Below are positions 17,807-39,594 of a stretch of DNA of 64,000 bases, piece by piece. This DNA is from Eledone cirrhosa. Lineage: Eukaryota. Both the position numbers and the translations under genes were made by a program. Each line of letters begins with the position of its first letter. Position 1 is the first letter of the stretch. Under the pieces are notes generated by a model. That model did no database searches and was not told the origin of the DNA. It saw only the letters and a program-made list of their open reading frames with translations. The DNA lies in the NCBI GenBank assembly GCA_964016885.1, contig OZ024749.1, positions 46,128,001-46,192,000 of the forward strand, read 5' to 3'.

Positions 17807-17975
17807 GGTCTGTGGTTTTTCTCACAGATGTGAGAAAAACCACAGACCCTCCATCTCAACTCTACTTTTGAAAAGAAAAAGAACTGCGAAACCGGTAAAG
17901 GAACCAAATAAATATATATATTTTTTAAAAAAATAAGACTCCAGTTGCATTTTCGATTTCATCTCTTTTTCTTTA
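17807..17975 (+). mobile_element. Family C fold-back element (20-bp arms) with a U3-A8 hammerhead-like motif at 17865-17900
   Basis: Hairpin GGTCTGTGGTTTTTCTCACA-GA-TGTGAGAAAAACCACAGACC followed by CTT TTGAAAA GAA AAAGAAC TGC GAAA CCGG TA AAG; homologous to 39440-39594(-). Confidence 0.85.
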
Positions 17976-18655
17976 TATATATATATATATATATATATAT
18001 ATATATATATATATATATTGATATATATATATACATATATACATATATGTATATATATATATATATATGCCAGTATTAATATTCCAATGTAAGGATTGAA
18101 CCCGATGGAGCCTATTCGTCGTTTCGATTTTGTGATGCTGTTATATTAAATACAATATATTTACCTTTTTCAACGCAGTCTAGATCAAATAAATCTATAT
18201 TATATCATATCACATATTAACAAAACCTTTTAACGCATCACTGATTCACACACACCTATTTATATATATATTTATACACACACACATATATATATATGTA
18301 TATATATGTTTATATATTATATGCCCATGCATCTGTTGCTCACCAAGCAAGCATGCTGCCATTTACTCAATAGCTGACTTGTTCTTCAAATAAATGACGT
18401 TCAACAATGTTTGCATAAACAACAACATATATATATCTATATCTATATCTCTATATATATATATCGATTACTAATGTTGACAAATAAGTTACATATTTTC
18501 TGAGAGGTCATAGTTTATTTTACACATCGATCTCTATGATAGCCCTTATTGATTTTGAAATGACGTAAGTCAAAATTGTGCCGAGAACATTTGAACTATA
18601 GACGTAAAAATATGCAATTACATTTGCATGACACTATAATGATGCCATTAATTAC

Positions 18656-18788
18656 TTGCCATTCTGATTTCAAATCCCGCCGAGGTTTACTTTGCCTTTC
18701 ATCCTTACGGGGTCGATGAAATAAACTACCAGTAATACACTGGGTAATTGGGTAATTGCTGGCCTTGTGCCAAAAGTAGAAACAATTA
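18656..18788 (+). mobile_element. SINE main family, 5'-truncated
   Basis: B-box region, core and tail are present. Confidence 0.85.
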
Positions 18789-19163
18789 ATTACATGATCC
18801 TAGTGATGATGATGATGAGGAGGAAACTGGTTTGTAATTCATTCACTGTGCAGCAATTTGGGAGGTTATTTTATCAAATTTCCCCATTACATGAAACTTA
18901 CATTATTTTATTGACACAGAGAGAATAAATGCCAATGATAAACTCCGGATTTGAACTAAGAACGTAAAGACTCGTCCATAAATACTGTGATCCATTTGTC
19001 TAACTCTAATTATTCTGTTAATCCAACGCTCAAATGGGGTGGAAAATAATGATTATGTACTATTGACTAGCCAAGATAGAATGAAAGTGGTTATCTACGA
19101 GTAGTCAACTACCATTTCCTTACAACACAGCCTAGCCGACTCTATGAGAGGGAGGGCAGACGC

Positions 19164-19365
19164 AGAGAGAGAGAGAGAGAGAGAGAGAGAGAGAGAGAGA
19201 GAAAGAGAGAGAGAGAGAGAGAGAGAGAGAGAGAGAGAGAGAGAGAGTGAGAGAGAGATAAAGAGAGAGAGAGAGAGAGAGAGAGAGAGGGAGAGAGAGA
19301 GAGAGGGAGGGAGAGAGAGAGAGAGGGAGAGAGAGAGAGAGAGAGAGAGAGAGAGAGAGAGAGAG
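19164..19365. repeat. (GA)n microsatellite
   Basis: Direct reading. Confidence 0.97.
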
Positions 19366-19691
19366 TGAATGAGAGAGATAGAGAAAAATAGAATGATTCC
19401 TAAATTGGTTGTATTTACGAAGAAGAGATGTTCACTCTGGTACATGATTGGTATATATATTTTTCAACCAGCCGGATGAAAGACAAAGATTTCGTTAGGA
19501 CCTATGGTCTCCCAGTACATACTGCAAATAATATTCTCAGATGCTGTGATGATTCTAACGGTTAATATATGTTGTGTTTCTATGTCTCTCTGACTGCATG
19601 TGTTTGTTTTGCTTTATTACAAGAAAATCTATATTAATTAAACATAAATTTTCCACCTCTATACATAATTTAGGATTTTATTTCATATTTT

Positions 19692-19850
19692 AATAATTGT
19701 TTCTACTTTTGGCACAAGGCCAGCAATTATTCCTGTGCATTACTGGTACTTTATTTTATCAACCCCATAAGTGTGAAAGGCAATGTTAACCTCGGCGGGA
19801 TTTGCACTCAAACCGTAAAGGGCTCTACCGATACTGCCAATCCACCGCAC
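19692..19850 (-). mobile_element. SINE main family, internally deleted
   Basis: Tail, core and head CCGATACTGCCAATCCACCGC in reverse orientation. Confidence 0.85.
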
Positions 19851-19869
19851 CTCATATTTTAATAATATT

Positions 19870-36345: not shown

Positions 36346-36595
36346 CTTCTTCTTCTTCTTCTTCTTCTTCTTCTTCTTCTTCTTCTTCTTTCTTCTTCTT
36401 CTTCTTCTTCTTCTTCTTCTTCTTCTTCTTCTTCTTCTTCTTCTTCTTCTTCTTTCTTCTTCTTCTTCTTCTTCTTCTTCTTCTTCTTCTTCTTCTTCTT
36501 CTTACTGCTACTACTACTACTACTGCTGCTGCTGCTGCTGCTGCTGCTGCATGATAATAATGATAATAATAATAATGATAATAATACTATTAATA
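36346..36595. repeat. Compound triplet microsatellite (CTT)n(CTA)n(CTG)n(ATA)n
   Basis: Direct reading. Confidence 0.95.
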
Positions 36596-36904
36596 CTATC
36601 AATATTGAGAAGAGTGATGGTGTCGATATTAATGATGATGATGATCTGGGTGGTAGATAATACTAAGCTTGGTATTTATGAAGATGATATCAATGAAGAA
36701 CATCGTTAATATGAGGGTGAAGCTGATGTAAACGATGGTGATGAAAAAGGAAAAGAAAAATTATGAAAAAAATCTCCTACCAATCTTAAACGAGATGAGG
36801 CGAAAATAGCCCTAATTATTTAGTGATCGATAGGAACTTGAGGTGAATAGTTTCAAAGACCTTCTGCTTTTCCTCATCGTCTTCCTCGTCATTTAAGATT
36901 GATA

Positions 36905-37268
36905 CTATTACAGCTACTACTGCTGCAGCTGTTGTTGTTGCTGCTGCTGCTCTGCTGCTGCTGCTACTACTACTATTACTTAAACTATACTTCTACTACT
37001 GCTACTAGTACAACAACAACTACTACTACTACTACTACTACTACTACTACTACTACTACTACTACTACTACTACCACCACTACTCTTACTTATATTACTA
37101 CTACTACTACTGCTACTACTACTACTACTACTACTACTACTACTACTACTACTACTACTACTACTACTAATGCTGATGTTACTAATGCTCCTGTTACTAC
37201 TACTACTACTACTACTACTACTACTACTACTACTACTACTACTACTACTACTACTACTACTGTTACTA
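36905..37268. repeat. (CTA)n-rich compound microsatellite
   Basis: Direct reading; it explains the poly-T and poly-L ORFs. Confidence 0.95.
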
Positions 37269-38059
37269 TATCAGATGTGGATGGTGCATATTAGATTAAA
37301 CTCTTCCGTAGTGCGTTGTCCATATTCTGTTATCGACGCCGCCATCTTTGCAAGAGAATTTGTATATCACTATTTCGAAGGCAGATACGATCCTGAAAGA
37401 ATTACCAGTTATAAATAACAGGTCTCTAACTCTAGTTTCGTAATAGTAGTGATTGTTTACATTAAAGAAATGTCGAGCCCTCAATCTCTCTCTCTCTCTC
37501 AGTCTCATTATATATATATATATATGAGTATATATATATAATTATATATATATATATATATATATATATATATATAATATATATTTATGTATAATTATGT
37601 ATGCATGTATAAATATAAATATATATATGAGCATGTGTATACATATGTGTGCATGTGAGTATGTGTGGACGTGTGTAAAAATAAAATGCCATTGACTTTG
37701 TTCCTTTTGTTTTAAAATATGTTTATGTTATTTTCAGCTTAGTGTCTCTCATACATAGAAGCAACAACAACAATGAAATGATAATTCATGCTATAAATCG
37801 CCAATATATAGCGTCACAGACACCCAAGAGAAATATACTTTTTATCAATTGGCAACTATCATAGCTTAGAATTCCATATGGTATCATTTGTTTATATCCC
37901 TATTGCAGTTAGAAAATACCAAAGTATCTTAAAGAGCAATTTCCTAATCTCCCAGACATTCTATCTTGAATCTTGCCTGTTTAAGAGGCACCGTCATTTC
38001 CTATCTCACACACCATAAAAGTAAAAACAAAAATGTACCGAAATAAAAGGAAAATTCAA

Positions 38060-38346
38060 AAGATGTAAAAAATCATTCAAGAATGATCTCAGCATATATT
38101 AATGAAGTATATATATATATACATCTCTATTGCTTTCTACCTTTCTCTCTCTTACTCTCAACTATATAATATGTATACAACTATATAATTATATATATAT
38201 ATATATATATATATATATATATATATATATATATATATATATATATATATATTTTATATAGTTGAGATTAAGAGAAAGAAATAGAGATGTATATATATAC
38301 TTCATTAATATATGTTGAGATTATTTTCAATGATTTTTTACATCTT
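38060..38346. repeat. Inverted duplication (38060-38168 and 38255-38346) around (TA)n
   Basis: AAGATGTAAAAAATCATT..CATATATTAATGAAGTATAT versus ATATACTTCATTAATATATG..AATGATTTTTTACATCTT. Confidence 0.85.
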
Positions 38347-39439
38347 CTTATATATATATATATATATATATATATATATATATATATATATATAGTAATA
38401 TATATATAGTAATATTTTAATAAATATATATATATATATATATATATATGTTTATATATATATATTTATATATAAATATATGTGTGTGTGTGTGCTTGCA
38501 TACATACATTTATGTACGGGCTTTTATCAATGCGATATAACAGAAATTCCATATATCTACTAACAACTTTACCTAACTATTGAATACTGAAAGAAGAATA
38601 ATGTTATAACTGGTCTGAACTAACAACAACCATATATATACAGCCATATACACCCCATCATATCTATATCTCTCTCTATATATATAGAGAGAGAGATATA
38701 GATATATATGTATAGATATACATAGATAGATATAAGCTGAAACGAAGATTAATACTGAATTTGCGAATTCTATGATTCTGAATAACCTTTGTTGTTGACT
38801 AATCAGCACATGGGTCAATTTAATCGACTTTAACCTCCCTCAAAATTGCTGGCCTTGTGTCTAAATCTTAACCATTGTTATAGACTGGATAAAAAAGATT
38901 ATAGTTTGAAAGTTTGTATTTTTACGTTTACTATTTAATATTTGTTTCGTTTAATCTTTGTAAAAATATTGTAATGTTCCTAAAGAATCTGTCACTGGGT
39001 GACAGTTTAATTTCTTCTGAATCGAAACAATTTTCTCAAGGTTTTGTGTTGCACAGTCACACTCACTAAGTTCATGATGCATATATATGCACTTGCATTA
39101 AAAACATGCATATATGAAAATACACTTACAAGCCCAAATGTATATACAAGTGCACATGCATACTATATATAGCTGAGGAGGATAATAATGATGGAGATAC
39201 ATTGATAATCGCAGAGATGTATTGTTATACTATTTGGAGCGTCATGCTGCCAAAATTGTATTACTTCTCTTTAATCTGTTGATGACATTAATTTCAATTG
39301 ATGTGACTGCACTACTTCGATACACTGTGTATCTTACATATCAAACACACATAAAGGCACATAATCCTATACACACATTAGAAAGTGAGGTTTTCTTTAC
39401 AAAATGTAAAATAACCGAGGTGTCCTACACGAGTGAAAG

Positions 39440-39594
39440 TATAAAGAAGAAAAGATGAAATCGAAAATGCAACAGGAGTCTTATTTTTAAAAATATATAT
39501 ATATTTATTTGGTTCCTTTACCGGTTTCGCATTTCTTCTGCTTTTCAAAAGTAGAGTTGAGATGGAGGGTCTGTGGTTTTTCTCACATCTGAGA
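39440..39594 (-). mobile_element. Family C element
   Basis: Reverse-complement homologue of 17825-17975 with only a 5-bp fold-back, TCTCA-CATC-TGAGA. Confidence 0.85.
39516..39551 (-). ncRNA. Putative minimal type I hammerhead ribozyme, U3-A8 core variant
   Basis: CUU UUGAAAA GCA GAAGAAA UGC GAAA CCGG UA AAG: stem I CUU/AAG, stem II GCA/UGC, palindromic ACCGGU stem III and a GUA cleavage triplet. Confidence 0.6.

What the first reader, a model, noticed from the sequence alone, without database searches (positions are those of the whole stretch)
17807..39594. Family C: the fold-back apex is always about 40 nt upstream of the ribozyme core while arm length varies from 5 to 198 bp
Seen: the apex at 17827/8 versus core start 17868, the apex at 32158/9 versus core start 32199, and the apex near 39587/8 versus core start 39548 on the - strand are all about 40 nt apart. 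The inverted arms are 20, 198 and 5 bp, and the 32 kb copy belongs to a diverged subfamily. Inference: the inversion point is programmed (a defined RNA or cDNA end, or a self-priming hairpin) and the arm is synthesised anew at each insertion rather than being a fixed TIR.
Basis: partly seen in the sequence, partly recalled or inferred. Interest (0 to 1): 0.75.

Follow-up and report, generated by a model that had tools for sequence, protein, structure and literature searches.

The report
Penelope palindromes turn at predicted start
These three repeats are end pieces of a very abundant Penelope-type jumping gene, and across the genome its mirror-image copies turn at one sharp preferred point 30 bases behind a TATA box, likely the start of its RNA, though about half of the mirrored copies turn elsewhere.

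Summary
The three hairpins exist at the stated coordinates. Family C is the 3' terminal repeat (pLTR) of Penelope-like retrotransposons (RT plus C-terminal GIY-YIG with a CxxxxCxxC linker, Neptune type), in two subfamilies, with a minimal hammerhead-like motif. The apex is a real hot spot: at least 1,630 and 706 such hairpins genome-wide. Copies abutting (TA)n start at +1 (145) or -1 (75), hardly ever at -2/-3 (3). Longer copies carry TATAAAA at -30 or CATAAAA at -32, so +1 is likely the transcription start; no RNA data tested this. 'Always' is wrong: of 84 inverted elements, 31 turn at +1 with both arms, 12 with one arm, 41 elsewhere. A third ribozyme-bearing family lacks the 40-nt boundary, so the ribozyme does not set it. 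Arm length is mostly fixed (about 150 or 200 bp) by an internal 3' end; in 73 of 76 inverted copies one arm carries the tail and the other does not. Best reading: two target-primed cDNAs run off the RNA 5' end and are joined head to head, often through a short snap-back. Inverted pLTRs are known; the scan already noted paired ends on other DNA in this genome.

The parts
17807..17826 (-). Copy 1, 20-bp inverted arm anchored at the apex; a 30-nt stretch of unknown origin (17777-17806) lies between it and the (TA)n
17826..17973 (+). Copy 1, subfamily-1 pLTR unit from +1 (AGATG) to the short, tail-less 3' end at (TA)n; junction of the +1/+5 type
17868..17897 (+). Minimal type I hammerhead-like core with U3/A8, palindromic helix III and predicted GUA cut after 17897; helix II is damaged in this copy
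   Evidence: sequence
31961..32158 (-). Copy 2, left arm: subfamily-2 unit from the apex to the short 3' end
32159..32353 (+). Copy 2, right arm, identical to the left arm, including two minor alleles
32199..32229 (+). Copy 2 hammerhead-like core (mirror copy at 32088-32118 on minus); GCAA in place of GAAA
32354..32393 (+). Copy 2, 40-nt PLE tail present on the right arm only, followed by (TA)n
39379..39590 (-). Copy 3, subfamily-1 unit from +1 (39590) to the long, tailed 3' end; core at 39548-39519
39590..39594 (+). Copy 3, 5-bp fold-back arm (pairs with 39581-39585), junction of the +1/+7 type, then (TA)n

Best explanation
Family C is the 3' pseudo-LTR of two Neptune-type Penelope-like retrotransposon subfamilies, and its hot-spot apex is likely the 5' end of an RNA started by the element's own upstream TATA promoter. 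Shown: the parent elements, the TATA/CCAAT block, the sharp 5' edge at -1/+1, the two 3' ends next to TA, and the one-tail-per-insertion rule. Inferred: the element's endonuclease cuts both strands of a (TA)n tract; the two DNA ends prime reverse transcription at the two initiation sites that bound the tail, one each; cDNAs made on the short promoter-to-tail RNA run off at +1, like a strong-stop product; the run-off end pairs through 1-4 bases with itself or with the other cDNA and is extended. In-register meeting of the two products gives the full palindrome (copy 2); out-of-register meeting gives inversion with deletion; capture by the target after a few bases gives short arms (copies 1 and 3). 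cDNAs from longer RNAs stop at random places and give the 41 junctions elsewhere. The hammerhead is mostly read through uncut.
For: Parent: L065, L109, L208, L211, L214 extend into ORFs with RVT_1 and GIY-YIG hits. Edge: TA-abutting starts 145 at +1, 75 at -1, 3 at -2/-3, 9 at an internal TA control, 24 at the ribozyme cut; 23 of 32 non-inverted subfamily-1 5' ends between -330 and +111 fall in -7..+11. Promoter: TATAAAA at -30 in 41 of 49 body-bearing subfamily-1 arms, CATAAAA at -32 in 36 of 38 subfamily-2 arms, CCAAT at -80/-100; in tandem copies the unit lies directly before the ORF ATG. Junctions fall in a few registers: 39 of 50 in four types, 47 of 50 in one register; the commonest subfamily-1 type has a 1-nt loop, which fits two ends annealing better than a hairpin (inference). 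One long and one short outer end in 73 of 76 inverted elements. Arms without overlap: L062, L106, L107; kilobase asymmetry: L065, L214, L141/142. A PLE protein extends both target strands from two internal RNA sites that bound the tail, and does not need hammerhead cleavage (PMC11167929).
Against: The start site is predicted from sequence only. Fully overlapping arms need strand displacement, a second RNA or a snap-back step, none shown. Arms share variants (232 of 246 calls), which a one-cDNA fold-back explains equally well; only one pair (L092/L224) has a clean two-base subfamily difference between arms. Deletions inside palindromes after insertion could produce truncated arms. Three exceptions to the end rule (L094, L102, L205). 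No extra G from a cap was seen consistently at +1. The pattern counts differ in length and TA phase, and the internal control covers only one sequence variant. The samples are the first hits on contig C1, favour young copies, and were classified by hand.
Confidence: 0.62

Rival explanations
1. One cDNA only: it starts at the tail end, runs off at +1, folds back and copies itself; the second arm is closed at the internal TA site by microhomology or by an endonuclease nick; all truncated arms are later deletions of full palindromes.
For: Arms share private variants. The short end lies at an internal TATA-like run in both subfamilies. Mini-hairpins survive at the apex in L015, L066, L072, L206. 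Craig et al. ascribe the tail to endonuclease resolution (PMC8557442).
Against: Elements in which the arm that reaches furthest 5' has the short end and the tailed arm is truncated or does not overlap (L062, L103, L106, L107, L123, L137, L188, L194, L209) need a deletion each; in five of them the tailed arm stops within about 45 nt of the short-end site. Kilobase asymmetric inversions need huge loops. The 1-nt loop type is hard to fold.
Confidence: 0.25
2. Self-priming on an antisense template, as proposed for Adineta vaga Penelope palindromes.
For: Head-to-head geometry with a palindrome at the junction is the same (PMC3846280).
Against: Non-inverted copies have fixed 3' ends and 5' truncation relative to the ORF strand, and the sharp edge sits 30 nt behind a sense-strand TATA box.
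Confidence: 0.06
3. The edge at +1 is not a transcription start but the boundary of a non-autonomous master copy, an RT pause or a DNA cleavage site.
For: No RNA evidence was obtained; ends spread over -1 to +10.
Against: The same edge, at the same distance from a TATA-like box, is found in two subfamilies about 77% alike, with many junction types and sequence variants, which argues against one master; almost no ends lie just upstream (3 against 220).
Confidence: 0.07

Closest known systems
Endonuclease-containing Penelope elements of Adineta vaga (Arkhipova et al. 2013, PMC3846280; abstract and passages read)
   Same: Head-to-head inverted pLTR, palindrome at the junction, tail on one of the inverted pLTRs, TATA and Inr-like motifs in the pLTR, self-priming proposed.
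   Different: There a few copies per family and an antisense template; here thousands of copies show the apex at a predicted sense start site, with the promoter upstream of the short unit.
Neptune/Nematis clades of C-terminal EN+ PLEs (Craig et al. 2021, PMC8557442; passages read)
   Same: RT then GIY-YIG with CCHH, CX2-5CxxC linker, (TA)n targeting, partial tandems, inverted 5' copy, tail at one end.
   Different: Tail of about 65 nt in subfamily 1 (40 in subfamily 2); coding region in two frames that overlap at UUUUUUA in both subfamilies; no tree was built to separate Neptune from Nematis.
PAc Poseidon element in vitro (Frangieh et al. 2024, PMC11167929; parts 1-2 of 4 read)
   Same: Both target strands extended, two internal RT start sites bounding the tail, product length set by the RNA 5' end, hammerhead cleavage not needed.
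   Different: Other clade; the parts read do not explain the inverted junction or its position.
Drosophila virilis Penelope promoter (Schostak et al. 2008, PMC2377424; passages read)
   Same: Transcript starts inside the upstream pLTR; intron shortly behind the start; inverted repeats of variable size.
   Different: TATA-less internal promoter there; TATA and CCAAT boxes upstream of the predicted start here.
L1 twin priming (recalled, not read here)
   Same: Two target-derived primers on one RNA give 5' inversions with deletion.
   Different: In L1 the second primer anneals at variable internal sites; here both starts are fixed and the arms often overlap fully.

Membership tests
EN+ Penelope-like element | RT followed by a GIY-YIG endonuclease | tested here: met
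   Pfam RVT_1 (E 4e-7) and GIY-YIG (E 2e-6) in L214; GIY-YIG above cutoff and RVT_1 just below in L065
EN+ Penelope-like element | pLTRs in partial tandem or inverted arrangement, 5' truncation | tested here: met
   Tandems L109, L132/133; inverted L065, L208, L214; coverage falls toward 5'
EN+ Penelope-like element | Tail present at one end only | tested here: met
   73 of 76 inverted elements
Neptune clade | CX2-5CxxC linker and CCHH motif, C-terminal EN | tested here: met
   Read in the translations of L065, L211, L214; definition from PMC8557442; shared with Nematis
Neptune clade | Placement in the RT phylogeny | not tested
Minimal type I hammerhead | Core boxes, helix II, short palindromic helix III, NUH site | tested here: inconclusive
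   UUGAAAA...GAAA-CCGG-UA in subfamily 1; a generic pattern gives 19,976 hits against 32 for the control and also finds a canonical CUGAUGA family with the same helix III. U3/A8 replaces C3/G8; subfamily 2 has GCAA. No Rfam hammerhead hit; single-strand folds no better than shuffles
Minimal type I hammerhead | Self-cleavage | not testable with these tools
   Only indirect: 24 TA-abutting copies start at the predicted cut against 9 at a control site
TIR DNA transposon or MITE | Fixed terminal inverted repeats with an internal spacer | tested here: not met
   Outer ends differ between arms, most copies are not inverted, parent encodes RT
Non-LTR retrozyme | Tandem non-coding units, each with a hammerhead | tested here: not met
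   Units are solo, inverted or attached to a coding body; no arrays in the loci read

The most novel reading that the evidence does not exclude
Penelope-like elements make a strong-stop-like cDNA from a promoter-defined RNA 5' end, prime it from both sides of one cut at two mutually exclusive start sites, and join the two cDNA ends to each other; this one cycle would account for inverted pLTRs, the one-sided tail and thousands of promoterless SINE-like copies.
Probability: 0.45. Interest if true: 0.62.

Novelty: new member of a known kind. Interest (0 to 1): 0.42.

Why it matters
How Penelope-like elements form inverted pLTRs and the one-sided tail is an open question in the papers read (PMC8557442, PMC3846280, PMC11167929). 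Two young families with thousands of base-exact junctions tie the turning point to a predicted start site and give numbers that any model must meet: a sharp 5' edge, a few junction registers and a 73 of 76 end rule. This argues for a sense template and makes the question testable by CAGE and by an in vitro reaction. The elements and their inverted structure are otherwise ordinary.

Tried and rejected
Rfam gave no hit in the window and no hammerhead hit on a copy at E up to 10. Single-strand folding of the three cores was no better than shuffles. The repeat finder was swamped by (TA)n. No RNA holder was listed by the look-up of sequencing runs; laying four contig sets of unknown kind on a tandem junction showed loose TA ends at both 3' ends but no joint that matches the predicted intron, and contigs cannot show a start. 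Ribozyme cleavage as the source of the apex: rejected (cut is at +72/+74). Fixed TIR: rejected. Assembly artefact: unlikely, since arms differ by point changes and outer ends follow a rule. My first query began at the apex and was biased; those 30 loci and the core-anchored loci were left out of the counts. The 30-nt stretch left of the 20-bp arm found no convincing source among the loci held. Literature searches: Penelope-like + strong-stop + cDNA, 0 papers; Penelope + twin priming + inverted, 2 listings that looked unrelated; Penelope-like elements + self-priming + inverted, 3 listings, one relevant; Penelope + palindrom + inverted + transcription start, 8 listings, none read. Subscription papers such as Arkhipova 2006 are not in the library and no supplements were read, so the link of apex and start site may be in print. 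Of 10.64898/2026.07.22.740005 I read part 1 of 5; of PMC4209133 passages only.
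Full report
Observation. I number from the A of AGATG as +1 (17826; 39590 on minus; 32156 by homology). The core starts at +43 in subfamily 1 and +44 in subfamily 2, which gives the 40-nt distance. Copy 2 has a 40-nt tail on its right arm only, copy 3 has the tailed end, and copy 1 has the short end.

What the family is. The window lies in a 3.0-Gb genome. A 27-mer of subfamily 1 has 10,949 exact hits and a 26-mer of subfamily 2 has 6,642. Many copies extend upstream of +1 into a body of up to 4.7 kb. 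[quoted passage not shown] By the definitions in PMC8557442 (passages) this is a Neptune- or Nematis-type Penelope-like element; (TA)n targeting fits Neptune. In tandem copies (L109, L133) the unit lies directly before the ATG, so it is the pLTR plus tail.

The ribozyme. The core reads as a minimal type I hammerhead with U3/A8 in place of C3/G8, a 4-5 bp helix II, the palindromic helix III typical of PLE hammerheads (PMC4209133, passages) and a GUA site at +72/+74. A generic pattern finds it, a second U3/A8 family and a canonical CUGAUGA family with the same helix III (19,976 hits, control 32). That U3/A8 can work is recalled, not read. Rfam does not detect the motif and subfamily 2 has GCAA for GAAA. 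Activity is untested.

Is the apex fixed? Exact patterns give 1,630 and 706 apex hairpins. Among the first 50 listed, subfamily 1 has four registers (16, 10, 7 and 6 cases; 11 others) and subfamily 2 has one register in 47. Copy 1 is the second type, copy 3 the third. For an unbiased view I took the first 101 and 88 hits of patterns that lie downstream of the ribozyme and classified 85 and 62 elements by hand (the script lists 84, one appended fragment in L105 was added). Subfamily 1: 23 solo copies starting in -7..+11, 6 starting further down, 15 with body and no inversion seen, 41 inverted (15 full hairpins, 3 short apex-only arms, 6 with one arm at +1, 17 elsewhere). Subfamily 2: 8 solo at +1, 11 with body, 43 inverted (11, 2, 6, 24). 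So 31 of 84 inverted elements turn at +1, 12 have one arm there and 41 turn elsewhere. The apex is a strong hot spot, not a rule.

What +1 is. Genome-wide, copies that abut (TA)n begin at +1 in 145 cases, at -1 in 75, at -2/-3 in 3, at an internal TA control in 9 and at the ribozyme cut in 24 (patterns are not perfectly matched). A sharp upstream edge with scatter downstream is what run-off at a template end gives. Body-bearing arms show TATAAAA at -30 (41 of 49) or CATAAAA at -32 (36 of 38), and CCAAT at -80 or -100; the parent has no hairpin there. The spacing is that of a TATA promoter (general knowledge). A third family with the same core shows no boundary near -40: in the 30 loci read, nearly all run on 100 nt or more upstream and one turns at the core. 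The 40 nt are therefore a property of these two subfamilies' promoter, not of the ribozyme. No RNA run could test this.

How the arm is made. Both subfamilies have two 3' ends next to TA-like letters, about 65 and 40 nt apart. In 73 of 76 inverted elements with readable ends one arm has the long end and the other the short end (p about 1e-18 against a coin toss; 3 exceptions; 3 unreadable and 5 apex-only elements left out). The arms share subfamily variants: 154 concordant against 13 discordant calls in 29 pairs, 78 against 1 in 12 pairs, with 55 and 20 discordant expected for random pairs (one or two pairs may be counted twice). So both arms come from one source. Some elements have a tailed arm that does not overlap the other arm (L062, L106, L107), others an arm of kilobases facing one of about 200 bp (L065, L214). 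Others keep a mini-hairpin at +1 between a 3'-anchored arm and the main arm (L015, L066, L072, L206). The simplest single scheme is double priming at the two sites, run-off at the RNA 5' end, a short snap-back or end-to-end annealing, and joining to the second cDNA or directly to the target. A PLE protein does extend both target strands from two internal sites in vitro (PMC11167929). One-cDNA fold-back plus later deletion remains a serious rival, because shared variants fit it as well.

What is known. Inverted pLTRs with a palindromic junction, a one-sided tail, TATA/Inr motifs and a self-priming proposal are described for Adineta vaga (PMC3846280), there on an antisense template. I did not find the mapping of the apex to a sense start site in the searches, but the library lacks subscription papers. 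Earlier notes of this scan report double priming and one end of each kind per palindrome for retrozymes and Hydra-type elements of the same genome; I looked them up after reaching this reading, and they are not independent proof. None of the notes shown concerns a TATA-defined apex, and the sequence look-up found nothing.

Verdict. A real and strong feature of an ordinary kind of element. Interest 0.42.

Noticed in passing
L109 (minus), L208 (minus), L211, L214, L133, L142: In both subfamilies the coding region is split into an upstream frame and the RT-EN frame that overlap at the heptamer UUUUUUA, a candidate -1 ribosomal frameshift; L065 has a changed heptamer. PMC8557442 mentions a frameshifted ORF1 in some PLE types.
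   Followed up: partly
L109 and L133 tandem junctions; window 17894-17900: The hammerhead cut site overlaps a G|GUAAA donor-like motif, and an AG with a pyrimidine run lies just before the ATG (172 and 195 nt on). A 5' UTR intron here would remove the cut site and both 3' end sites, so only unspliced RNA could be copied from the 5' tail.
   Followed up: partly
L009, L025, L033 (GA), L060, L069, L070 (GT), L104 (AGAT): Microsatellites at the 5' junction repeat the element's own first letters: joining by microhomology to compound repeats, or reiterative synthesis by a telomerase-like RT.
   Followed up: no
upstream of +1 in L032, L130: Besides TATA and CCAAT, both promoters hold E2F-like (GGCGCGAAA, GGCGCAAAA) and E-box-like motifs, duplicated in tandem in many copies; motif labels are recalled.
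   Followed up: no
window 17571-17677: A near-perfect palindrome of another TA-targeted family lies 130 bp from copy 1; it recurs beside family C copies (L023, L024, L025), as these elements pile up in the same (TA)n tracts.
   Followed up: no
L121: A subfamily-2 hairpin opened at +8 encloses a palindrome of about 420 bp of another family with (TA)n at its centre.
   Followed up: no
L258, L260-L288: A third family with a UUGAUAA hammerhead-like core (294 exact hits), TA-targeted, with two 3' ends and no start boundary at -40.
   Followed up: partly
L092/L224: The two arms of one palindrome carry different subfamily doublets at +38/+39: two RNA templates or later gene conversion.
   Followed up: partly
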